From a phage: a DNA stretch of 46,716 nt. The stretch lies in the NCBI GenBank assembly GCA_018580065.1, contig GCA_018580065.1_4845.1; one strand, given 5' to 3'. The notes beneath the pieces are model-generated. The model worked only from the letters and a program-made list of their open reading frames with translations. It did not search any database and was not told the origin of the DNA. Below, piece after piece: positions 2,327-31,573 of the stretch. The position numbers and the translations under genes are program-made. Within the stretch, counting starts at the first letter, position 1. Every line of letters starts with the position of its first letter.

Positions 2327-2403
2327 GGACGCGTAGCTTAATTGGTTAAAGCAACCGACTCATAATCGGCTGATTGAAGGTTCAAATCCGTCCGTGTCCA
2401 CCA
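2327..2403 (+). tRNA. tRNA with anticodon CAT (Met elongator-type or Ile2)
   Basis: Hand-folded cloverleaf: 7-bp acceptor stem GGACGCG/CGTGTCC, U8, D-loop with GG, anticodon loop CTCATAA, T-loop TTCAAAT, 3' ACCA; two stem mismatches. Confidence 0.7.
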
Positions 2404-2438: not shown

Positions 2439-2800
2439 ACAACCCGCAAAAGCAACTCATGCACAGGTCTTTTCTCTTCCGTCAGCATTGGCCTACCGAG
2501 CGGAGCCTGCAACTGGATGTAGTTAACGCATGAATCAATCGGATGGGTTTTGATGTATTCGATAATCTCATTGGCTTTAGCGTCAACATCAGCCACATTG
2601 TATTGTCCTTGTTTCCCAACAATGTACAACGAGAAATAGAAGTCACCACCGAGGTCGTCCATAACCTGCGTTCCACCGTTGGATTGCAGGACAATAAACT
2701 GCTCGTTTCCATCTCCGGTGTCATTCCAGAACTGCAACTGCGAAGTCCAGCCATTATACAACCCGGCATCCTGAAGATATGCGTCAACCAGTTCAAGCAT
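2432..2800 (-). CDS. tail terminator / tail completion-like protein (by position)
   Basis: ORF track 124 aa (GTG at 2806, ATG at 2800); last small gene before major tail gene. Confidence 0.4.
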   Translation of the reverse strand: MLELVDAYLQDAGLYNGWTSQLQFWNDTGDGNEQFIVLQSNGGTQVMDDLGGDFYFSLYIVGKQGQYNVADVDAKANEIIEYIKTHPIDSCVNYIQLQAPLGRPMLTEEKRPVHELLLRVVK

Positions 2801-5787: not shown

Positions 5788-5979
5788 ATGGCAAACATGT
5801 ACTACTGTATGTTCCGCAATACCGTGATTGATTTTCGTGATTGCGTTGATGCAATTGGTAATGCTGAGTCTATTGACGAGTTCAGCAATTCAGAACACAA
5901 GTCTGCCGAGCGCCTGTACCATCTGGCTAATGAGTACGTCGCATATTACGAGCAATTGTTAGAAGAAAGTGGTGAATGA
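5788..5979 (+). CDS. hypothetical acidic protein
   Basis: ORF track 63 aa. Confidence 0.45.
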   Translation: MANMYYCMFRNTVIDFRDCVDAIGNAESIDEFSNSEHKSAERLYHLANEYVAYYEQLLEESGE

Positions 5980-5980
5980 T

Positions 5981-6790
5981 ATGAAAACACTAAGCAAAAT
6001 CTATTCAGACAAAGAAACACGCAACGGCATCGCTGTTAACAAAACCTATCTCGTGCCAGTGGAGCAAATCTATCTGGAGCCGGGATATAACATCCGTGAA
6101 GCAGATGAGCAGCATGTTGAATATTTTGCGCAGTGCTGGGAGTCCGGCCAGCCATTACCAGCATTAACAGTTATTCCAGACGAGAAGGGAATCCGCATTC
6201 TTGATGGTCAGCATCGCTATCTCGGCGCATTGCGTGCCATTGAGCGCGGAGCACCAATCGTTCGAATTGAGTGCAAGGATTTCACTGGCGACGAGGCGGA
6301 CAAAATCGCCTTCATGGTGTCATCAAGTCAGGGTAAGCAGCTTGACCCGTTTGAGCGCGCAAAGGCTTACACGCGACTGAAAGGCTTCGGCTGGACGAAT
6401 GAAGAAATCGCAAAAAAGGTAGGGCGCTCAGTATCTGACGTGCAAATGCATCTGTCTCTTGGTGATGTTCCGGCGGAAGTAAAAGCGCGAATCAGCGCCG
6501 GGCAAATCAGCTATGCAAATGCCGTAGCAGTAACTCGTGAGCATGGTGACGATGCGGTAAAGGTTATCGACGAGGCGGTCGAGGAAGCCAAAGCGCAAGG
6601 TAAGGATAAGGTCACTGCGAAGGTGCTGAAGTCGAAAAAGATTAAGCCAGTAGACCGTCTGATTGAGTTATTGAAGCCAGCAGACCACGTGATTCTTCCT
6701 GCTGGTCATGTGGTGGCAGAGGATGAGGAATTTATCCAGATTCCTGTTGCTGACATTCACGAGGTTATGGCAATTCTGGAGAAGATGTGA
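5981..6790 (+). CDS. ParB-like nuclease domain protein with C-terminal HTH
   Basis: ILDGQHRYLGALRA motif typical of ParB/Srx N-domain; RBS before ATG 5981. Confidence 0.65.
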   Translation: MKTLSKIYSDKETRNGIAVNKTYLVPVEQIYLEPGYNIREADEQHVEYFAQCWESGQPLPALTVIPDEKGIRILDGQHRYLGALRAIERGAPIVRIECKDFTGDEADKIAFMVSSSQGKQLDPFERAKAYTRLKGFGWTNEEIAKKVGRSVSDVQMHLSLGDVPAEVKARISAGQISYANAVAVTREHGDDAVKVIDEAVEEAKAQGKDKVTAKVLKSKKIKPVDRLIELLKPADHVILPAGHVVAEDEEFIQIPVADIHEVMAILEKM

Positions 6791-7281
6791 TGAACACAAC
6801 TAAAATAAATTGGGGTGATATTTTTCATTATGAAAATGGGGTGCTTAGGTGGAAGCACCAAAAAAGAAAAATGCTAAGTGGCTCTTTAGCTGGGACAATT
6901 GCAAATACAGGATATGTAATCATATGCGTTGATTACAAAAAATTCTTGGCTCACAGAATCATATGGGAGATGTTTAATGGACCAATCCCTGACGGGATGC
7001 AAATTGATCACATTAACCATATTCGTAATGATAACCGCATTGAAAACTTAAGGCTGGTAAGCCATATAGAGAACCATAGAAATCTTAGTAGGCAGAAAAA
7101 TAACAAATCAGGAAGAACTGGCGTTAGCTTTGACAGGAAGAGTGGGTTATGGAGGGCTTATGTATCAAAGATGCATATTGGTTTTTTTGCCAATAAAGAA
7201 GATGCAATATCCGCTAGAGAAAAAGCTGAAACTTCAACTGGGTATCACGAGAATCACGGAGTAAAAAGTGAACGTTTATGA
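6787..7281 (+). CDS. HNH homing endonuclease with AP2-like DNA-binding domain
   Basis: IDHINHIRNDNRIENLRLVSHIENHRN HNH motif; C-terminal GVSFDRKSGLWRAYV AP2-like segment. Confidence 0.8.
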   Translation: MMNTTKINWGDIFHYENGVLRWKHQKRKMLSGSLAGTIANTGYVIICVDYKKFLAHRIIWEMFNGPIPDGMQIDHINHIRNDNRIENLRLVSHIENHRNLSRQKNNKSGRTGVSFDRKSGLWRAYVSKMHIGFFANKEDAISAREKAETSTGYHENHGVKSERL

Positions 7282-24028: not shown

Positions 24029-24055
24029 GCCCTCGATTGAGGGCTTTATTTTTAT
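24026..24055. terminator. bidirectional intrinsic terminator
   Basis: AAGCCCTC-gatt-GAGGGCTT with T-run; between convergent genes. Confidence 0.7.
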
Positions 24056-25515
24056 CGCCTGCGCCGGATTAGCATCCCGCTACCGCGCTGTACGATGTGG
24101 TCATTGAGTGCGTAGCGAACCGCATCCCAATAGTGGTTGTATGCATCAACAATATCAGTCAGCACATTCCCAGTCAGCTTATCAACCTTATAGCTGTACA
24201 TTGCAGCCTCATTCTGCATTTCCTTGCATCGCTCGTGGATGACAATGCTGTCACATCCGCGCAGCCATGTTACGCCATCTTCAACGCTACCCGGCCATTT
24301 TGTGCATGGATGAATATCAAATCCAGAGCGCTTAATATGGCTAATGGTTTCGGGTCGAGCACAGTCGGCATACCATCTTGCGCGTTTAGCCATCGGGAAT
24401 GATTGCTCCATCGCGGCTGGTGTATCGGTAATCTCAAGGCCAACCTTGCCATACTCGCGATTAATATAAATGTTGCGTCGTCCACCTGGTAATTCTTCAA
24501 TGTAAACCTCAACCATTGCGGTAGGATCGGTGGAAAACCCGAAGTCCATCCCGAAATATGGACCATGCCATTCAGGCTTAACCTCAAAGTTATCAATGCG
24601 CCATTTTCCGCCGAATACCTGCTCGTCGCTGCGTTTGTTGAATGCTCCCATCCAAATCCAGCGATAACGGTCGTAATCAGTTCGCTTCATTTGCTCCATA
24701 GCGGACGGCAGGGGAGTGTCCCAGAACCACGGGTTGTCTGAATAGTTACATTCGATAATCAGAATTTCATCGTTTTCGAATATGCCATCAACCATCTGCG
24801 AGTGATAAGGCGCAATCCAGTTTTTCCACGTCGGGTCTGTTTCCTTGTTTGGGTTGAATGAGCACCACAACTCGGAATTGGCGGCACGGATGGTAGGCAC
24901 AAGAATATCCCAGCTTGTCTGGCTGACGTTCTCTGCTTCCTCTACCCAACCAACGGTAATGCCAGCGAAGCCCTTAACGGTTGTCTGATTGCGATACAGC
25001 CCCTTGAAGCGAAACTTCGCTTTGGTCTTCTTGTGTGTTATCTCGTTGTTGATAACGCGAAACTCTGCCGATTCACCCTTCCGGGCTATCTCATCAACAA
25101 GTTCCTGATAGCTTGAATCCTCAATGGATTGCTGAATCTCACGAAAGCAAGCAAAGCGGTCAGGTCGAAACCTTGCGCGCTCGGTAAGGATAGTGATAAT
25201 TGTTCTCGTCTTCCCTGACCCACGGCCACCATAGACGAACTTGAATCGTTTGGGGTAAAGCAGTCGCTCCAGTTTTGCGGGAATCAGGTGGTCGGCATGA
25301 GTGGTTGCATTGGTCACGTCATCAACGCCAGTAGCGGTCATCCTTAACCGCTTGATGACGTTTTTCTGCATGTCGCAGATACCAAAGATGGCAGACTCTG
25401 CAACATCTGTCATTGCATCATCAATCTGCGCTTCCAGCTTTTCTATTGCCAGTGCAGAGAGGCGTTTACGAGCCATTGGTTGGCTCCTGAAGAATGTCGG
25501 CCACCTCCTCATCAC
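24052..25515 (-). CDS. terminase large subunit
   Basis: Walker A VYGGRGSGKT, ATPase then nuclease-type C-terminal half; true start may be MARKRL at 25476. Confidence 0.85.
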   Translation of the reverse strand: MMRRWPTFFRSQPMARKRLSALAIEKLEAQIDDAMTDVAESAIFGICDMQKNVIKRLRMTATGVDDVTNATTHADHLIPAKLERLLYPKRFKFVYGGRGSGKTRTIITILTERARFRPDRFACFREIQQSIEDSSYQELVDEIARKGESAEFRVINNEITHKKTKAKFRFKGLYRNQTTVKGFAGITVGWVEEAENVSQTSWDILVPTIRAANSELWCSFNPNKETDPTWKNWIAPYHSQMVDGIFENDEILIIECNYSDNPWFWDTPLPSAMEQMKRTDYDRYRWIWMGAFNKRSDEQVFGGKWRIDNFEVKPEWHGPYFGMDFGFSTDPTAMVEVYIEELPGGRRNIYINREYGKVGLEITDTPAAMEQSFPMAKRARWYADCARPETISHIKRSGFDIHPCTKWPGSVEDGVTWLRGCDSIVIHERCKEMQNEAAMYSYKVDKLTGNVLTDIVDAYNHYWDAVRYALNDHIVQRGSGMLIRRRR

Positions 25516-25601: not shown

Positions 25602-26021
25602 TCATCCATTCTGCTGCTCCAGTAGTTTCTCCAGCCGCTCAAGTCTCGCGGCGAGTTCAGTAACTTCGGCAATATCCAGCCCTGTCCTGATAACCTCGGC
25701 AAATGTCTTACCAATGTCCACAGGTATAACACCAGCGGCTATACCTCGAATGACGGCGTCAATCTTCTGCACCGGAGTTCCGTCATCAGGGAAGTCCACC
25801 TCAAACACTGGGGCAACTGGTTTAGGTAGCGGACTGAATCGAACGATAAGCTCCTTCATCATTGCGGTGTCACGCTCAATCATTGCCATCTCAATGATGG
25901 TGTCATAGAGCTTTTCTTCGCTAAATCCCTTTCTCTCAAGAGCTTCAACAAGCAGCTTACGCTTATCTTTCCCGCGTTTGTTTTGTGGTTGATTTTCTTT
26001 ACTGAATAGCTTTTTAGCCAT
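25602..26021 (-). CDS. terminase small subunit (putative)
   Basis: 139 aa basic N-terminus, immediately upstream of terminase large subunit. Confidence 0.5.
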   Translation of the reverse strand: MAKKLFSKENQPQNKRGKDKRKLLVEALERKGFSEEKLYDTIIEMAMIERDTAMMKELIVRFSPLPKPVAPVFEVDFPDDGTPVQKIDAVIRGIAAGVIPVDIGKTFAEVIRTGLDIAEVTELAARLERLEKLLEQQNG

Positions 26022-26094
26022 AGATAAAACCTATCAATATTCCGCTATTTTTCCGTTATTCGATATTGTAACAGATTCTACACCATAGCGTTAA

Positions 26095-26126
26095 TGGCAA
26101 AAAAAGAACCCGCACGGGGCGGGCCA
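26095..26126 (-). terminator. intrinsic terminator ending the minus-strand early operon
   Basis: Minus-strand CCCGC-loop-GCGGG followed by TTCTTTTTTT. Confidence 0.6.
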
Positions 26127-26169
26127 AAGGTTGGGTGATGATATGAGGAAAGCAATGGTGGTTATGCGT

Positions 26170-26343
26170 TTATTGTACACCATGATTATCACGCTTGCCA
26201 GCATAGCACCACGCGTTTTCTGTTCTGGTCTGCACATGAACGATTTCAAGCGCATCAGGAAATGTTTTGGCGACCTTAGCGATAAAATCGTCCAGCTCGT
26301 GCTGTTTTGCGAGTTGCCAGACTTTCTGTTTAGTGGTTTGCAT
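26170..26343 (-). CDS. hypothetical protein
   Basis: Internal ATG of ORF-track entry 26170..26409. Confidence 0.35.
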   Translation of the reverse strand: MQTTKQKVWQLAKQHELDDFIAKVAKTFPDALEIVHVQTRTENAWCYAGKRDNHGVQ

Positions 26344-26527
26344 TAGCAAAAGCCCTCGTTGAGCACATACACTTAATGTCATGTACCCCAGTATCAGGAA
26401 CAACCTCAATGTAATTTCCGAGCTGAACCATCATGTAGTGACACGTCATGCCGCCGTCCCAGTAGCGTTTCCACATGAATTCCATTGCGGAGTTGATGTC
26501 ATTAAACATAATGCACAACTCCTGCAA
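26330..26527 (-). CDS. hypothetical protein
   Basis: ORF track 65 aa. Confidence 0.4.
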   Translation of the reverse strand: MQELCIMFNDINSAMEFMWKRYWDGGMTCHYMMVQLGNYIEVVPDTGVHDIKCMCSTRAFANANH

Positions 26528-26672
26528 TAGCTGCCATCAGTGTCAGCACATAGACAGCAAGAAAGATTTTAGCGCCAGGGGTGTATCGGCTTCGTTGGTG
26601 TCTGGTCATTTGCATGTCTCCACTAAAGCGTGCGCCACGTAGAGCGCACTGATAATTAACATTAACGGGTAG

Positions 26673-26975
26673 CTATTCACTTTTAGCCAGGCTTTCGAAT
26701 TGCTGGTTGGTAGTGTCGAACTGAACCATCTTGACAACATCGTCGAACATGACAAATTCTCCTTCATGGTCTTCAGCCATGTCAGCACAGAAGTTCGGAC
26801 TTAATGGGTCGCAACCACCAGTATTAAGCTCGTATCGCTTCAGGTTTGCGATATTTGATAAATTCAGCGCCAGTACAGCAAGGTCATAAACCTCATCAGC
26901 GGTATACCCGGCACCATGCCCATACATTTCAATACGGGATATGATTTCTTCTACACGTTGTTTTGTGATTGTCAT
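26673..26975 (-). CDS. hypothetical protein
   Basis: ORF track 100 aa. Confidence 0.45.
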   Translation of the reverse strand: MTITKQRVEEIISRIEMYGHGAGYTADEVYDLAVLALNLSNIANLKRYELNTGGCDPLSPNFCADMAEDHEGEFVMFDDVVKMVQFDTTNQQFESLAKSE

Positions 26976-27205
26976 ACCCTAACCCCCATAATTTCTTCGT
27001 AATAACCATCCTCTTCAAACTCAATCTTTGCGATTGTGAGCGCATCCTCATCAGTGATGTCAATCGCTTTGAATTTGCACTTTGCCAGCACTATGCATCC
27101 TGACAAGATTAGCCACTTATTCCACCATCGCACTCGCCTGATTGTTTTGCTGTCATACATTTTATTCTGCACTATCCAGAACTCGTATGTTTTTACTTTT
27201 GCCAT
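26972..27205 (-). CDS. hypothetical protein
   Basis: ORF track 77 aa. Confidence 0.45.
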   Translation of the reverse strand: MAKVKTYEFWIVQNKMYDSKTIRRVRWWNKWLILSGCIVLAKCKFKAIDITDEDALTIAKIEFEEDGYYEEIMGVRV

Positions 27206-27241
27206 ATCATCACCATTAAAAATAAGAATGCTGAATCGTGT

Positions 27242-27424
27242 TCAGAACACGATAATTAGCTCATCCATTACTCTTCGCTTACCTTCACCATTGAACACGC
27301 GCACAACGCGATTCACACGGATAGATTCCATTGCATTGCGTGCCTGCTTGCTCATAAAGTTCTGCGCGCCAACGCGACCGAGTTCTGGTTCCAGCTTCTC
27401 GCGACGATAGATAGTCTTTGCCAT
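27242..27424 (-). CDS. hypothetical protein
   Basis: ORF track 60 aa. Confidence 0.4.
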   Translation of the reverse strand: MAKTIYRREKLEPELGRVGAQNFMSKQARNAMESIRVNRVVRVFNGEGKRRVMDELIIVF

Positions 27425-27427
27425 TTG

Positions 27428-27586
27428 TTATTTCTCCACGTGCGCCTGATACATTGCTTGCCAGATGAAAACAACAGTGTCACTCATCTCATCATCTGTC
27501 ATGCACTCAACATCAATATTTTCCATAAGTTCATGGATGCCAGCTTCAATCATTTCTTCTGTTGGTTGGATTGGTTTGTTGCTCAT
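27428..27586 (-). CDS. hypothetical acidic small protein (52 aa)
   Basis: ATG-to-stop ORF in early operon, read by hand; below ORF-track cutoff. Confidence 0.3.
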   Translation of the reverse strand: MSNKPIQPTEEMIEAGIHELMENIDVECMTDDEMSDTVVFIWQAMYQAHVEK

Positions 27587-27765
27587 TTTGTTAAGCCTCA
27601 TAAGAGTTAATGATTGCCTTGATGCGACGACGATACCACTGCATGATGTGTTCGTTATGCCAGTTACTCATTGTTACTCCCTATACCCTGATTTAGAAAC
27701 TGCCACTGCGATAATGATGAACGCCACGATAACCAGACTGGCGATAAGCTCGAATGATGCGCCTG

Positions 27766-27912
27766 TCATTTACCTAACCCATACGCCGAGATTAAAGCCT
27801 GCATTGCTGCGTTCCAGAATGCTTCTGCAGGAATACTGTTATTTGTGCGCTCAACTGCAATGCGCGCCATAGCCTGTGCATCTTTAAATTCTTCGCGGTC
27901 TTTAATTTTCAT
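27766..27912 (-). CDS. hypothetical small protein (48 aa), first gene after early promoter
   Basis: GAGGGTGAAGG RBS before ATG 27912; followed by overlapping tiny ORFs (31 aa membrane peptide 27674..27769, 26 aa 27591..27671). Confidence 0.35.
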   Translation of the reverse strand: MKIKDREEFKDAQAMARIAVERTNNSIPAEAFWNAAMQALISAYGLGK

Positions 27913-27942
27913 ACCTTCACCCTCGTTTGTTTCGATGAGTTC

Positions 27943-27971
27943 AATCTACATCAGTTGTGATTCTACGTCAA
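27943..27971 (-). promoter_or_regulatory. sigma70-like early promoter, TTGACG-17nt-TAGATT
   Basis: Minus strand TTGACGTAGAAT...GATGTAGATT; both elements are copies of the recurring motif. Confidence 0.6.
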
Positions 27972-27984
27972 CATGCAGAGAAAG

Positions 27985-28135
27985 AAAAAGCACTACCAAA
28001 TGTTAGTTAATGCTAGCCAACATATATAGTTACATATATTACTAATAGTAACCTTTGTTTATTACCTCTATAAAGTATATTAAGATCTTCTTTATATTTA
28101 TTGTAGATATTAATACCTTACGCTACAGAAACACG
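27985..28135. other. AT-rich block with dyad symmetries (candidate DNA unwinding element)
   Basis: Visibly AT-rich, non-coding, next to iteron array; contains TTGTAGATAT motif copy. Confidence 0.4.
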
Positions 28136-28165
28136 AAAACCAGCAGTTAAGCTGGTTATTTTTTA
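28136..28165 (+). terminator. hairpin with T-run inside the non-coding origin-like region
   Basis: AAAACCAGC-agttaa-GCTGGTT followed by ATTTTTTAG. Confidence 0.4.
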
Positions 28166-28185
28166 GTGGTTTTTAGTGTTTTTTG

Positions 28186-28414
28186 GCTTCCCGCGCTTCC
28201 CTGAATTCCCTGGAAGCATTTTTTTCTTTGTTTTCAGTAGCTTCTGAGTGTTTTTTGTATCGCTTCCCGCCTCCCAAGAAAATAATTTTTGAATTTTAAA
28301 ACTCTCAATTTTTTTCGAAAATCTTCCCGGGAAGCGGGAAGTTGGGAAGCGACGACTTAAATAATTGATTTTCCTGTATTTTCGCTTCCCAAGCTGTTTT
28401 GGTTTTTTGGAAGC
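28186..28414. repeat. iteron-like array of GCTTCCC / GGGAAGC heptamers (candidate replication origin)
   Basis: At least 8 copies in both orientations, including CTTCCCGGGAAGCGGGAAGTTGGGAAGC; located just upstream of the replication module. Confidence 0.55.
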
Positions 28415-28581
28415 AAAGCTATTGAAAATAAAAGAAAAATTACCCCTCTGGTAAGCGTTATACTCCTGTTGGAGTGTGCTGTCAACCAGCCGCACGGAAC
28501 AAAGATCATCCCCGTGTAAATGTGTTTGACTAGCTTCCTTTTTCCCTTTATTCTTTTTTTTATCAAACAAGAAGTGGAGAA

Positions 28582-28820: not shown

Positions 28821-29243
28821 ATGAAAAGGTACTACATTGAGGCAATTGGGGCTGATGGTAAAAAGTTATATGCCAGCGGTAGATGTGGTTTTCTGCATGA
28901 TTTTACCTATGCGAAGTTTTTCAAAACAATAGAGGAGGCTGAGGGGTATATGGCGTGGCGGAAGCCTCATCTCCCATGTGAAATAAAATGCAAGGAGCAA
29001 AGGGTAAAAAAACGGTCTGCGTCTCAGGTGGAACAAAAAACGACAATGGAGGGAGAAGCTAGAAACTTCGTCTACCGCCTTGGTTTGGATAAGGGAAAGC
29101 ATTTTGTGTTTGATGATTTTAAGTTGATAAAGAGCATTGATCAGTTGAGAACTTCCCTTGACAGGGTGGGTAAGAAGCTGCAAAAAAAATTCAGTGTCAA
29201 TATGGTTGCGCGTAATACCGCTTATGTGGTGAGGGTTAAATGA
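28821..29243 (+). CDS. hypothetical protein
   Basis: ATG 28821 with GTGAGGTG RBS (ORF track from 28806). Confidence 0.45.
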   Translation: MKRYYIEAIGADGKKLYASGRCGFLHDFTYAKFFKTIEEAEGYMAWRKPHLPCEIKCKEQRVKKRSASQVEQKTTMEGEARNFVYRLGLDKGKHFVFDDFKLIKSIDQLRTSLDRVGKKLQKKFSVNMVARNTAYVVRVK

Positions 29244-31573
29244 TGATTGGTTATGAAGATTACCGCAAATGTGGCTTCCCTATTATTGGAATCCATGCGA
29301 TGGATATCGACCGAAATTGCACATGCGGTGATCCAGAGTGCAATGCTGCCGGTAAGCATCCGGTTATGAGCAACTGGCAGCTTGGAGTTATATGGGCTGA
29401 TGACCAGATTGAAAATATGGCTGAATATGGTCAGTTGCAGTCATTCGGTGTCCTTGTGAATGGTTATCTGGTCGTTGATATTGACCCACGCAACGGAGGT
29501 AATGATGGATATGAATCGCTTTGTGATGCCTTAGACGTAGAGCTTGCTGACGAAGCTGGTTTTACGGTCAAGACTGGTGGTGGTGGTCGCCACATCTATT
29601 ACAAACTTCCTGAAGGAATAAAGCTGCGCTCTCATGACAGAAGATTTAATGGTATTGACTTTAAATCATCTGGTTTTGTTGTTGGATGTGGTTCTTTTCA
29701 TAAAACTGGAAACTTTTATGAGGCCGAGCATGGATCCCCTTCAGAGATAACTGAATGTCCATCTGAACTTATTGAGCTTTTGTTGCGTCCTGAGAGAACG
29801 GAAGACGAGGTTTTCACGCTTGATAGTAAAAATTACAGCATTGCCGAAATGGAGGATATGCTCAAATACATCAAAGATGGTGATGAGTATGACCCATGGC
29901 TTCATGTAGGTATGGCTATCCACGAAGCTACAGAAGGCAATGGTTTTGAGCTTTGGGATAGATGGTCATCGCAGTTCAGCAAATACAGAGCTGAAGAGAT
30001 GGACGCAAAATGGCATTCCTTTGGAAAGGACGGCGTTAGCGAAAAGATAACAGAAGCAACGCTGGTTTATCTCGCGCAAGAGGGGGGGTGGGTAAGGCAA
30101 GTAACTTTTGAGGCTACGCCAGAGGAAATTGAGAAACTTGAGTCTTTCGAACGAGAGATGGCAATGGGTGTTGGTGAATGCCCTGTAGAGTACAAAAGTG
30201 TTGATGTCCGTTATCCGCCTGGATTTGTTGGTCGCCTTGCGGCGTGGATTAATAAGAACTGTGCAGAGAAGCGAGAGAATATTGCAGCACTTGCCGCATT
30301 GCATGCCGCATCCATGATTTGCGGTGCGTCATCTGATATTTACCTTACAAACAGGAAGGCTTTACCAAACCTTTTTGCTGTTGGTATCGCTGGTTCAGGT
30401 TCAGGTAAGGGTGATGTCCTTGCTGCGCTACAAAAGATAATTGATTGCTCAGGATTGAGTAAGACAGTTGCCGGTAAGATACGCTCAGAGCGTGCGATAT
30501 ATGAAGGTCTTTGCGCTAACCAGATGTTTAATATCATCATGGATGAGATTGGGATAAAACTTGGGAGTGTTGTTGGTCAGAAAGTAAGCGAGTACAACAT
30601 GGCAACCGCTGGTGCGATCATGGAGGCTTACACGTCAGAAGTTCTTTATTGTGACCAGCGGGTTACTGAGGATTTCATTAAGTCTTTTGAAAAAAGAAAG
30701 GCTATGCTGTTGATGGCTATTGAGGAAAATGAAATACAGGCAGACCCCGTTGACATTAAGTGTCAGTTTGATGATGTGATAAACAGAATTGACGGAGCTA
30801 TAAGGAATCCATTTTTTTCAATCTTTGGTGTATCTACTGATGATCAGTTTAAGCGCCTTATTACAGAAGAAAACATTAAGTCAGGCCTTATGGGTCGCGC
30901 AATGATTATGCAGGAGTTACAGGAGATTGCTGATGAAAACGAAAACGTAAACTACTGTGATCTACCTATGGATATGCAACTGACCATAAAAACAATAATA
31001 AATGGCGGAACGGCTGGGCACAAAAACTGGACAGACTCAATAATCAGTCAAAAAGAAAGACGGATTATAAAAGCCACGCCTGAAGTTTCTCAGCTCGCCA
31101 AGGAGTTCTTCTCATGGATTAAAACCGTTGCAAGAAAGCATGTAGAAAATGGTACTGGTTATCACCCATTGATAAACAGATGCGCCGTGAAGGTGGCAAA
31201 GATTGCTGGAATTCTCGCGTGCGATACTGGCGTCATAACCATGGAGCACTTGAGATATGCGGTAGCATTAACAATTAAATCAACAAGCGATCTGATGATG
31301 CGTGCCGACAGTATCGCCGGAGCGAAGTCTAAAGCTATGGAAGAGAGAATTGAAGGCATTTTCTCCATGGTTAAAGAATATGTGAAGCGAGGAATGACCA
31401 AAACAGCAATGGTTAGAGGGGTGGCAAAAGAAGGTGGTTATAAACGTGCTGATGTCGAGAGGTGCGTAGAGAAGTTGTTATCAGATGGTGTTATTTGCAT
31501 TGATGAAAATGCAAAAAGAACATCTCACAACGTAATAATTTACAAATTAACAAATGATGAGGTTGAGATATGA
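29240..31573 (+). CDS. bifunctional DNA primase-polymerase with helicase-like C-terminal domain
   Basis: Prim-pol motifs VVDIDPRNGG and GGGRHIYY, PriCT-like DPWLHVGMAIHEA, Walker A GIAGSGSGKG. Confidence 0.8.
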   Translation: MMIGYEDYRKCGFPIIGIHAMDIDRNCTCGDPECNAAGKHPVMSNWQLGVIWADDQIENMAEYGQLQSFGVLVNGYLVVDIDPRNGGNDGYESLCDALDVELADEAGFTVKTGGGGRHIYYKLPEGIKLRSHDRRFNGIDFKSSGFVVGCGSFHKTGNFYEAEHGSPSEITECPSELIELLLRPERTEDEVFTLDSKNYSIAEMEDMLKYIKDGDEYDPWLHVGMAIHEATEGNGFELWDRWSSQFSKYRAEEMDAKWHSFGKDGVSEKITEATLVYLAQEGGWVRQVTFEATPEEIEKLESFEREMAMGVGECPVEYKSVDVRYPPGFVGRLAAWINKNCAEKRENIAALAALHAASMICGASSDIYLTNRKALPNLFAVGIAGSGSGKGDVLAALQKIIDCSGLSKTVAGKIRSERAIYEGLCANQMFNIIMDEIGIKLGSVVGQKVSEYNMATAGAIMEAYTSEVLYCDQRVTEDFIKSFEKRKAMLLMAIEENEIQADPVDIKCQFDDVINRIDGAIRNPFFSIFGVSTDDQFKRLITEENIKSGLMGRAMIMQELQEIADENENVNYCDLPMDMQLTIKTIINGGTAGHKNWTDSIISQKERRIIKATPEVSQLAKEFFSWIKTVARKHVENGTGYHPLINRCAVKVAKIAGILACDTGVITMEHLRYAVALTIKSTSDLMMRADSIAGAKSKAMEERIEGIFSMVKEYVKRGMTKTAMVRGVAKEGGYKRADVERCVEKLLSDGVICIDENAKRTSHNVIIYKLTNDEVEI

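What the first reader, a model, noticed from the sequence alone, without database searches (positions are those of the whole stretch)
26170..27971. Early operon of about ten very small ORFs (26-100 aa), including micro-membrane peptides
Behind the promoter at 27943..27971 lies a chain of tightly coupled tiny genes (TGATG/ATGA overlaps), several under 50 aa and therefore missing from the ORF track, for example 27766..27912, a 31-aa hydrophobic peptide at 27674..27769, 27591..27671 and 27428..27586. Such promoter-proximal micro-ORFs are typical host-takeover factors with no characterised homologues.
Basis: seen in the sequence. Interest (0 to 1): 0.45.

Follow-up and report, generated by a model that had tools for sequence, protein, structure and literature searches.

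The report
Small-gene phage operon containing Stp homologue
The ten tiny genes are real, conserved phage genes forming one transcription unit, and one 26-residue gene is a clear relative of phage T4 Stp, a known inhibitor of a host restriction enzyme, so this is an ordinary phage accessory-gene cluster in which one gene has a characterised relative.

Summary
On the minus strand, ten small ORFs (26-100 aa) lie between a sigma-70-type promoter (27943..27971) and an intrinsic terminator (26107..26125). Each has a Shine-Dalgarno-like sequence, and most junctions overlap or are 2-4 nt apart. In 11-12 related virulent siphophages (Sa179lw, Sf11, swi2, LPST10 and others, about 88% nt identity) the frames are kept under purifying selection: pooled dN/dS is 0.06-0.25, and 0.48 for one membrane peptide. 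The long antisense ORFs are broken by stop codons in about half of the relatives. Promoter and terminator are invariant while their flanks vary.

ORF 27591..27671 ([26 protein letters not shown]) belongs to the T4 Stp family: Pfam PF08133 scores 35.1 bits against a cut-off of 25, and 12 of the 18 N-terminal residues match T4. T4 Stp inhibits type IC restriction and triggers the PrrC anticodon nuclease. The gene is unannotated in every sampled relative that carries it as a 26-27 aa ORF. tBLASTn finds no Pnk or RNA ligase tRNA-repair genes in the window.

The other nine genes fall in function-unknown families. The unit has a conserved backbone and variable slots, like a phage accessory region. 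Early timing is inferred, not shown. Interest is modest.

The parts
27943..27971 (-). Sigma-70-type promoter TTGACG-17 nt-TAGATT of the small-gene operon
   Evidence: Found by the promoter scan. It is the only match in the window, with 0 of 100 shuffles matching. The -35 hexamer plus the following TAGAAT, and the TGATGTAGATT block, are invariant in 12 related phages while the flanks and the middle of the spacer vary.
27766..27912 (-). o1, 48 aa, first gene; function unknown (phrog_2180)
   Evidence: SD-like GAGGGTGAAGG upstream. Present with an ATG start and the same stop in 11 of 12 relatives. dN/dS 0.12, with codon-position differences of 38/14/106. PHROG E = 3e-23.
27674..27769 (-). o2, 31-aa single-pass hydrophobic peptide (phrog_35977)
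   Evidence: ATGA overlap with the o1 stop. Maximum Kyte-Doolittle window 2.92. dN/dS 0.25. Frameshifted or stop-interrupted in ST1UNAM, VSt472 and Vi II-E1, so it appears dispensable.
27591..27671 (-). o3, 26-aa homologue of phage T4 Stp (type IC restriction inhibitor and PrrC activator family)
   Evidence: [quoted passage not shown] Alignment with T4 Stp [26 protein letters not shown] gives 12 of 18 N-terminal residues identical and the same length. dN/dS 0.06, with codon-position differences of 5/15/57. SD TAGGGAG upstream.
27428..27586 (-). o4, 52 aa, very acidic (pI 4.1); variable-slot gene of unknown function
   Evidence: Among the 12 related loci it is present only in Sa179lw and ST1UNAM. 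dN/dS 0.07 over 2 pairs. Weak PHROG matches to the C-termini of larger unknown proteins. Charge -10.
27242..27424 (-). o5, 60 aa, basic (pI 10.9), Pfam DUF7540
   Evidence: PF24386 at 111 bits. Present in 12 of 12 relatives, dN/dS 0.14. The best AF2 model has pLDDT 93.7 (the other four models 51-61) and a beta-alpha-beta-beta fold. No significant match in the PDB. In BFVD the only matches with E below 0.01 are three unnamed viral proteins, one of them a 95%-identical homologue (TM 0.99). A 98%-identical homologue (DS8 QCQ57318.1) was orf79 in the accessory-gene screen of Silas et al., and no phenotype is discussed for it.
26972..27205 (-). o6, 77 aa, phrog_10786; function unknown
   Evidence: Present in 11 of 12 relatives, dN/dS 0.18. 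PHROG E = 1e-43. The DS8 homologue QCQ57319.1 was orf29 in the Silas et al. screen, and no phenotype is discussed for it.
26673..26975 (-). o7, 100 aa, acidic (pI 4.3), phrog_3126; occupies the variable slot
   Evidence: ATGA overlap with o6. Full-length homologues in 8 of 12 relatives and a 16-residue remnant in ST1UNAM; replaced by other genes in Sf11, gmqsjt-1 and YX3973. dN/dS 0.25. 257 homologues, those listed being 78-95% identical and, where the contig is complete, on phage-sized contigs of about 46-48 kb. The AF2 model is unusable, with pLDDT 49.
26502..26609 (-). o8, 35-aa (37 aa from the first ATG at 26615) single-pass hydrophobic basic peptide, phrog_9340
   Evidence: The first ATG is not a start codon in 8 of 11 relatives. 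The second ATG lies 8 nt after GGAG. Maximum Kyte-Doolittle window 2.29, pI 10.4. dN/dS 0.48.
26330..26509 (-). o9, 59 aa, phrog_5407; function unknown
   Evidence: 8-nt overlap with o8. dN/dS 0.15. Truncated to 40 aa by a stop codon in Segz_1, VSt472 and gmqsjt-1.
26170..26343 (-). o10, 57 aa, Pfam DUF7334; last gene of the unit
   Evidence: PF24022 at 134.8 bits, matching profile positions 2-58 of 58, which fits the 57-aa start. 14-nt overlap with o9. dN/dS 0.08.
26098..26125 (-). Intrinsic terminator (7-bp GC-rich hairpin plus T-run) closing the unit
   Evidence: Found by the terminator scan. 21 of its 28 columns (hairpin and T-run) are invariant in 9 phages. The window's AA-to-GG change keeps pairing as G-U. 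The MFE fold shows the hairpin.

Best explanation
The region is one transcription unit of a virulent siphophage of the Sf11 / Sa179lw / swi2 / LPST10 group. It runs on the minus strand from a host-type sigma-70 promoter (27943..27971) to an intrinsic terminator (26107..26125).

It encodes ten small proteins that are packed closely enough to be translated in a coupled fashion. It points away from the prim-pol replication operon across a 610-bp AT-rich spacer, and it lies just upstream of the terminase genes.

The unit behaves like a phage accessory region. It has a conserved backbone (o1, o2, o3, o5, o6, o8, o9, o10). It also has slots in which genes come and go between relatives: o4, o7, an Eae-like gene and a Lar-like restriction-alleviation gene.

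The third gene (27591..27671) is a 26-residue homologue of T4 Stp. The most likely mechanism (inferred from T4) is as follows. Soon after infection the peptide binds a host type IC restriction-modification complex of the EcoR124I / EcoprrI type and blocks DNA cleavage. This protects the unmodified phage DNA, which carries recognition sites for such enzymes. In the rare hosts whose type IC locus also carries prrC, the same binding would unmask the tRNA-Lys anticodon nuclease. This phage has no detectable Pnk or RNA ligase to repair the tRNA, so infection in such hosts would abort.

The other nine products are conserved proteins of unknown function: two single-pass membrane peptides, two very acidic proteins, one very basic protein and four others. 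They are best guessed to be further modulators of the host or of host defence.

Shown here: the genes, their conservation, the promoter and terminator, and membership of the Stp family by sequence. Inferred: early timing, the anti-restriction activity, and PrrC sensitivity.
For: Gene reality:
- SD motifs upstream of every start.
- In-frame conservation, with dN/dS 0.06-0.48.
- Antisense ORFs broken by stops in relatives.
- ORF tiling above all 300 shuffles.
- All ten ORFs hit PHROG families.

Boundaries of the unit:
- Promoter invariant in 12 phages and unique in the window.
- Terminator conserved, with a pairing-preserving change in the window.
- Prim-pol lies on the opposite strand and terminase (Terminase_3) lies downstream.

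Stp assignment:
- PF08133 above its gathering score and phrog_6763.
- Alignment with T4 Stp.
- In residues 4-14, where most T4 loss-of-function mutations cluster and whose C-terminal 8 residues are largely dispensable (PMC3014915), 8 of 11 residues are identical and 3 are conservative changes (F/W, V/I).
- T4 Stp inhibits EcoprrI and EcoR124I but not type IA enzymes (PMC3014915).

Accessory-region behaviour:
- Promoter-to-terminator length varies from 1862 to 2755 nt, and gene content varies between o3 and o5 and between o6 and o8.
- VSt472 carries a Lar-like restriction-alleviation gene in the same unit.
- Homologues of o5 and o6 from phage DS8 were chosen as accessory genes by Silas et al..

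Other points:
- The window holds 9, 7 and 13 copies of three type IC recognition sequences (the sequences are recalled from memory).
- No Pnk or RnlA homologue by tBLASTn.
Against: - No expression data exist for this phage group in the searched literature, so 'early' is unproven.
- The C-terminal 8 residues differ completely from T4 Stp, and no Stp outside the T-even phages has been tested, so the target could differ.
- NCBIfam gave no hit for o3.
- Homologues of o5 and o6 have no phenotype discussed in the Silas et al. screen.
- o2 and o9 are disrupted in some relatives.
- Only a subset of relatives has the promoter-like site in front of the small terminase gene. Read-through into the packaging genes therefore cannot be excluded.
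Confidence: 0.7

Rival explanations
1. The unit is a generic set of early host-takeover genes. The Stp-like peptide has a different target in this phage, and the Stp N-terminal motif is a reusable binding module. Anti-restriction is not the theme of the operon.
For: Nine of the ten products have no assignable function. The C-terminal third of o3 is unrelated to T4 Stp. Unlike T4 and the T1-like phages BEC3 and Pocis76, this phage lacks the Pnk partner.
Against: The part of Stp that carries its activity, residues 1-18, is the part that is conserved. A Lar-like anti-restriction gene sits in the same unit in VSt472.
Confidence: 0.2
2. The unit is not an early operon. It is a middle or late leader of the packaging operon: transcription from 27971 reads through the terminator into the small and large terminase genes, and the small genes serve packaging or morphogenesis.
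For: The unit has the same orientation as the small terminase gene (25602..26021) and the large terminase gene (24052..25515) and lies directly upstream of them. The promoter-like site at 26065..26094 is present in only four of the eight relatives compared.
Against: A strong, invariant hairpin plus T-run terminator separates the two units. The promoter is a near-consensus host-type promoter that diverges from the replication genes. T4 stp is expressed as a delayed-early gene (PMC3014915). Gene content is too variable for morphogenetic functions.
Confidence: 0.08
3. The micro-ORFs are chance ORFs. The real genes are the long plus-strand ORFs 27036..27410 and 27465..27872.
For: The plus-strand ORFs are longer, at 124 and 135 aa. 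Antisense ORF coverage of the region is also fairly high, at 0.76.
Against: The plus-strand ORFs carry stop codons in about half of the relatives. The minus-strand frames show a third-position excess and low dN/dS. They have SD motifs and match PHROG and Pfam families.
Confidence: 0.02

Closest known systems
Phage T4 Stp (26 aa; Pfam PF08133 Nuclease_act; phrog_6763), inhibitor of type IC restriction (EcoprrI, EcoR124I) and activator of the PrrC anticodon nuclease
   Same: Same length of 26 aa. The N-terminal core MSN[FW]HNEH[VI]MQ[FW]YR is shared. The Pfam score is above the gathering threshold. Both are embedded in a run of micro-ORFs that includes small membrane peptides; in T4 these are ndd.1-ndd.6, stp, ac and 52.1.
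   Different: The host genome is a 47-kb siphophage, not a T-even myophage. The C-terminal 8 residues are unrelated (AIINSYEA against TKGVFGRQ). No Pnk or RNA ligase 1 is detectable in the genome. Activity is untested.
Stp-like micro-ORFs of other siphophages: BEC3 and Pocis76 (Drexlerviridae, Tempevirinae), Sf12 (Rogunavirinae), RP180 (Kagunavirus)
   Same: Same family and same short length, lying among small genes of unknown function. BEC3 is the closest outside the group, at 74% identity over 23 residues.
   Different: In Pocis76 the Stp-like ORF directly abuts a polynucleotide kinase/phosphatase gene, and in BEC3 one lies about 500 nt downstream. The window has no such gene. RP180's copy is almost identical to T4's (24 of 25 residues), unlike the window's.
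Phage accessory regions, i.e. hotspots of variable counter-defence genes (Silas et al., bioRxiv 10.1101/2023.04.06.535777); the ea genes of P22 are cited from general knowledge
   Same: A conserved frame with variable slots, very small genes, co-occurrence with known anti-restriction genes (Stp here; Lar-like in VSt472), and Eae-like genes in relatives. Homologues of o5 and o6 were picked as accessory genes in that study.
   Different: Most of this unit (8 of 10 genes) is a stable backbone rather than a fast-changing set. No phenotype is reported for the two homologues that were screened.

Membership tests
T4 Stp / anticodon nuclease activator family (PF08133) | Sequence match to the family profile above the curated threshold | tested here: met
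   PF08133 scores 35.1 bits against a gathering score of 25, E = 1.2e-8, covering residues 1-18 of the 26-position profile. phrog_6763 E = 2.5e-13. NCBIfam gave no hit.
T4 Stp / anticodon nuclease activator family (PF08133) | Peptide of about 26 residues with a conserved N-proximal 18 residues; loss-of-function mutations cluster at residues 4-14 | tested here: met
   o3 is 26 aa. 12 of 18 N-terminal residues are identical to T4. In residues 4-14, 8 of 11 are identical and 3 are conservative changes.
T4 Stp / anticodon nuclease activator family (PF08133) | The reading frame is maintained by selection, i.e. it is a real gene and not a chance ORF | tested here: met
   An ATG start and a stop are kept in 11 relatives. 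dN/dS is 0.06, with 57 of 77 differences at third codon positions. An SD motif lies upstream.
T4 Stp / anticodon nuclease activator family (PF08133) | Inhibits type IC restriction (EcoprrI, EcoR124I) but not modification | not testable with these tools
   This needs in vivo restriction assays. The property is known only for T4 Stp (PMC3014915).
T4 Stp / anticodon nuclease activator family (PF08133) | Activates the latent PrrC tRNA-Lys anticodon nuclease | not testable with these tools
   This needs prrC+ cells or extracts.
T4 Stp / anticodon nuclease activator family (PF08133) | Accompanied by tRNA repair genes (Pnk and RNA ligase 1), as in T4. This is an associated feature, not a defining one. 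| tested here: not met
   tBLASTn with BEC3 Pnk and T4 RnlA against the window gives no hit below E = 1. Neither gene is annotated in the relative ST1UNAM.
Early (host-RNA-polymerase-dependent) phage operon | Conserved sigma-70-type promoter at the 5' end and a terminator at the 3' end | tested here: met
Early (host-RNA-polymerase-dependent) phage operon | Transcribed in the first minutes of infection | not testable with these tools
   No transcriptome of this phage group was found in the literature search.
Phage accessory region (variable counter-defence hotspot) | Gene content varies between closely related genomes within conserved flanks | tested here: met
   Promoter-to-terminator length is 1862-2755 nt. 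There are slots between o3 and o5, between o5 and o6, and between o6 and o8.
Phage accessory region (variable counter-defence hotspot) | Contains known counter-defence genes | tested here: met
   An Stp homologue in all 11 units compared, and a Lar-like gene in VSt472. This rests on homology only.
Membrane micro-peptides | A hydrophobic stretch long enough to span the membrane | tested here: met
   Maximum 19-residue Kyte-Doolittle windows are 2.92 for o2 and 2.29 for o8. This is hydropathy only; no topology predictor was run and there is no experiment.

The most novel reading that the evidence does not exclude
The Stp-like peptide of this phage group keeps the restriction-inhibiting N-terminus but has a remodelled C-terminus. 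This could let it block type IC restriction, or another restriction family, without setting off PrrC-type retaliation. That would explain how a phage can carry Stp without tRNA repair enzymes. By extension, the neighbouring conserved micro-proteins (o1, the o2 membrane peptide, acidic o4 and o7, basic o5) would be further, still unknown counter-defence factors.
Probability: 0.15. Interest if true: 0.55.

Novelty: new member of a known kind. Interest (0 to 1): 0.3.

Why it matters
There are three modest points.

- Gene callers skip 26-aa ORFs, so a recognisable anti-restriction gene is missing from nearly all deposited genomes of this phage group. It was unannotated in all ten records of the group listed. 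In the one sampled record that names it, a 1-nt frameshift has fused it to the upstream gene.
- The Stp family is spread across T-even myophages and at least four further siphophage groups, with or without the Pnk repair partner. This gives natural variants for studying how Stp blocks type IC enzymes, a mechanism that the 2025 review still calls unknown (PMC12707154). It also gives variants for studying how PrrC senses Stp.
- These Salmonella, E. coli and Shigella phages are used in biocontrol work. The gene predicts better plating on type IC hosts and abortive infection on prrC+ hosts.

Otherwise the region is a normal cluster of small phage genes of unknown function.

Tried and rejected
- Structure of o7: AlphaFold2 on a 24-sequence alignment gave pLDDT 49, so the model was not used.
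- Structure of o5: the best model has pLDDT 93.7, but the other four models score 51-61. Foldseek against the PDB gave nothing below E = 0.4. BFVD returned only unnamed viral proteins below E = 0.01, including a 95%-identical homologue. No function could be inferred.
- Sequence searches of o3, o5, o6 and o7 against PDB chains gave nothing meaningful.
- NCBIfam gave no credible hit for any ORF. The remaining Pfam hits were below threshold.
- Pnk and RnlA searches in the window were negative.
- The 8-bp palindrome at the o5/o6 junction and the hairpin in the o7/o8 gap were rejected as elements. The first is not conserved in relatives, and neither folds better than shuffled sequence.
- Stp-like peptides on plasmids: only one weak hit, on a 44-kb non-mobilizable record.
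- A literature search for transcriptomes of this phage group found none.
- Silas et al. screened homologues of o5 and o6, but neither is mentioned in the text.
- The relatives' 'Eae protein' annotation does not apply to o7. The Eae-like gene is a separate gene that the window lacks.
Full report
**What the window is.** The 46.7-kb window is a siphophage genome. Its operon region is about 88% identical at the nucleotide level to Escherichia phage Sa179lw (Buchananvirus), swi2 (Swiduovirus), Shigella phage Sf11 (Cedarrivervirus), Salmonella phages LPST10, VSt472 and Seszw_1 (Skatevirus), Segz_1, Vi II-E1 and DS8. A 25-kb stretch of the window is 90-93% identical over 60-72% of its length to ECO95 1-6-1, Sa179lw and Sf11, so it is a distinct member of that group. 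swi2 is described as virulent (PMC8185280).

The finding lies on the minus strand. On one side, on the opposite strand, is a prim-pol replication operon (29240..31573: Prim-Pol, PriCT_2). On the other side, on the same strand, are the terminase genes (24052..25515: Terminase_3).

**Check of the observation.** Ten ORFs tile 26170..27912 on the minus strand. Their sizes in residues are: o1 48, o2 31, o3 26, o4 52, o5 60, o6 77, o7 100, o8 37 (35 from the second ATG), o9 59 and o10 57.

- Every start is preceded by a GGAG/GAGG-type motif.
- The o1/o2 and o6/o7 junctions are ATGA overlaps. o8/o9 and o9/o10 overlap by 8 and 14 nt. Three junctions have 2-4 nt gaps, and two have gaps of 36 and 57 nt.
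- Same-strand ORF coverage is 0.886. Dinucleotide shuffles give 0.575 +/- 0.091, and none of 300 reached the observed value.

The decisive test is conservation.

- In 12 related loci, nine of the ten ORFs have in-frame homologues with ATG starts and matching stops. o4 is present in only two.
- Pooled Nei-Gojobori dN/dS against the window is 0.12 (o1), 0.25 (o2), 0.06 (o3), 0.07 (o4), 0.14 (o5), 0.18 (o6), 0.25 (o7), 0.48 (o8), 0.15 (o9) and 0.08 (o10). Differences are in clear excess at third codon positions. The pairs share the window as reference and are not independent, but the direction is unambiguous.
- The two long antisense ORFs (27036..27410 and 27465..27872) contain stop codons in 5 of 11 and 6 of 12 relatives. 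They are shadows of the real genes.
- For o8, the first ATG is not a start codon in most relatives, and the second ATG has the better SD spacing. The gene is therefore probably 26502..26609, 35 aa.
- o2 and o8 are hydrophobic enough to be single-pass membrane peptides.

**Boundaries of the unit.** The promoter TTGACG-17-TAGATT (27943..27971) is found by the scan and is unique in the window. In an alignment of 12 phages, the -35 hexamer with the following TAGAAT, and the block TGATGTAGATT, are invariant. The upstream flank and the centre of the spacer vary.

Downstream of o10 a hairpin plus T-run (26098..26125) is largely invariant in nine phages, at 21 of 28 columns. The window's AA-to-GG change in the stem still pairs as G-U. 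The region is therefore a discrete unit. It diverges from the replication genes across a 610-bp AT-rich spacer and is separated from the packaging genes by a terminator. That it is early is an inference from the host-type promoter. No expression data for this phage group were found.

**What the genes are.** All ten match existing PHROG families. o5 is Pfam DUF7540 and o10 is DUF7334. Nine have no functional annotation.

The exception is o3 (27591..27671, [26 protein letters not shown]).

- It matches Pfam PF08133 'anticodon nuclease activator family' at 35.1 bits against a gathering score of 25.
- T4 Stp is [26 protein letters not shown]. The two peptides have the same length and 12 of 18 identical N-terminal residues, with F/W, V/I and L/I exchanges.

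According to the T4 review PMC3014915:

- Stp is necessary and sufficient to activate PrrC.
- It inhibits the type IC enzymes EcoprrI and EcoR124I but not type IA enzymes.
- Most loss-of-function mutations fall in residues 4-14.
- Removing the last 8 codons only moderately lowers activity.

The conserved part of o3 is thus exactly the functional part. A 2025 review still calls the inhibition mechanism unknown (PMC12707154).

**Distribution of Stp-like peptides.** tBLASTn with o3 finds 784 phage records. 133 of them are at 80% identity or more (this phage group). The rest are T-even phages and several siphophage lineages. In all ten sampled records of this group the ORF is unannotated. In ST1UNAM it is annotated only because a 1-nt frameshift fuses it to the N-terminus of o2, giving a 59-aa product.

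Other siphophage copies were read from the DNA:

- BEC3: [26 protein letters not shown].
- Pocis76: [24 protein letters not shown].
- RP180: [25 protein letters not shown], nearly identical to T4.
- Sf12 also carries a copy.

In Pocis76 the Stp-like ORF directly precedes a polynucleotide kinase/phosphatase gene, and in BEC3 one follows about 500 nt downstream. This mirrors the T4 Stp/Pnk relationship. The window has no Pnk or RnlA homologue by tBLASTn, and neither is annotated in ST1UNAM. Plasmids essentially lack the family.

**Architecture across relatives.** The promoter-to-terminator distance varies from 1862 to 2755 nt. The order is o1, o2, o3, [o4], o5, [Lar-like in VSt472], o6, [Eae-like gene], [o7 or alternatives], o8, o9, o10. 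The window lacks the Eae-like gene. o7 corresponds to the gene after it (VIP0051-like), not to Eae. o2 and o9 are disrupted in a few relatives.

This is the pattern of a phage accessory region as defined by Silas et al. (bioRxiv 10.1101/2023.04.06.535777). Their 200-gene screen list contains DS8 QCQ57318.1 and QCQ57319.1, which are homologues of o5 and o6. Their table carries no comment on them and the text does not mention them.

**Mechanism.** The best-supported reading is that the unit is expressed by host RNA polymerase soon after DNA entry. Its third product would then act like T4 Stp, binding type IC restriction complexes and preventing cleavage of the incoming unmodified DNA.

The window carries 9, 7 and 13 copies of the EcoprrI, EcoR124I and EcoDXXI recognition sequences. 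These sequences are recalled from memory and were not checked against a source. The counts are somewhat below shuffle expectation but far from zero, so the genome would be a substrate. In prrC+ hosts the peptide would be expected to trigger tRNA-Lys cleavage, and without repair enzymes infection would abort. These steps are inferred from T4. None was tested.

**Attempts on the other genes.** The o7 model was unusable (pLDDT 49). o5 gave one confident beta-alpha-beta-beta model (pLDDT 93.7) but no informative structural neighbour. PDB sequence searches were empty. The functions of these genes remain unknown.

**Verdict.** It is wrong on 'no characterised homologues'. The finding is an ordinary phage accessory-gene cluster containing a new, largely unannotated member of the Stp anti-restriction family. 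Interest is modest.

Noticed in passing
window 28186..28390 (within the intergenic spacer 27972..28581): Six of the window's nine copies of GCTTCCC/GGGAAGC, in both orientations, lie within 205 bp of the AT-rich spacer between the small-gene operon and the replication operon. They look like iterons or operator sites, and the spacer is a candidate replication origin or regulator-binding array.
   Followed up: partly
window 28138..28157: A perfect 7-bp hairpin with T-runs on both strands, i.e. a bidirectional terminator-like site, lies in the spacer upstream of the operon's promoter.
   Followed up: no
window 27943..27971: Inside the promoter, the bases just after the -35 hexamer (GTAGAAT) and the -10 region (GTAGATT) form a direct repeat. 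Both copies are invariant in 12 phages, although spacer sequence is not normally constrained. This may be an operator that overlaps the promoter.
   Followed up: no
window 26126..26169: In the 44-nt untranslated stretch between the o10 stop and the terminator hairpin, 35 of 44 columns are invariant in nine phages, whereas the sequence after the terminator diverges completely. The reason for the conservation is unknown; it might be a 3'-UTR element.
   Followed up: partly
window 26016..26100; loci L001, L004, L006, L010, L011: The leader of the small terminase gene comes in several unrelated versions among close relatives. The promoter-like TTAACG-18-TACAAT (26065..26094) occurs only in the version shared with swi2, LPST10 and gmqsjt-1.
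   Followed up: no
window 2327..2403 (+): A single tRNA-Met (CAT) gene, found by ARAGORN and by Rfam at 63 bits. There is no tRNA-Lys that could bypass a PrrC-type nuclease.
   Followed up: no
L017 (Hafnia phage Pocis76) 1854..2767; L013 (phage BEC3) 2501..3629: In T1-like phages the Stp-like micro-ORF is genetically linked to a polynucleotide kinase/phosphatase gene. The two are directly adjacent in Pocis76. This pairs the trigger of PrrC with part of its antidote.
   Followed up: partly
L018 (Raoultella phage RP180, Kagunavirus) 2501..2578: An unannotated Stp ORF, [25 protein letters not shown], is identical to T4 Stp at 24 of 25 positions. This suggests recent transfer between a T-even myophage and a siphophage.
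   Followed up: no
L002 (Salmonella phage ST1UNAM) 2707..2886: The 59-aa 'anticodon nuclease activator family protein' annotated here is a fusion of the o2 N-terminus with the Stp ORF. A 1-nt deletion relative to the other phages causes it, through either mutation or sequencing error.
   Followed up: yes
window 27036..27410 (+) and 27465..27872 (+): Long antisense ORFs of 124 and 135 aa lie opposite the micro-genes. An ORF-length filter would pick these instead of the real genes. They are interrupted by stop codons in about half of the relatives.
   Followed up: yes
window 5969..7281 (+): A ParB/KorB-HTH protein (5969..6790) is followed by an HNH_3 homing-endonuclease-like gene (6787..7281). 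Relatives carry HNH genes at other positions, for example next to the terminase gene.
   Followed up: no
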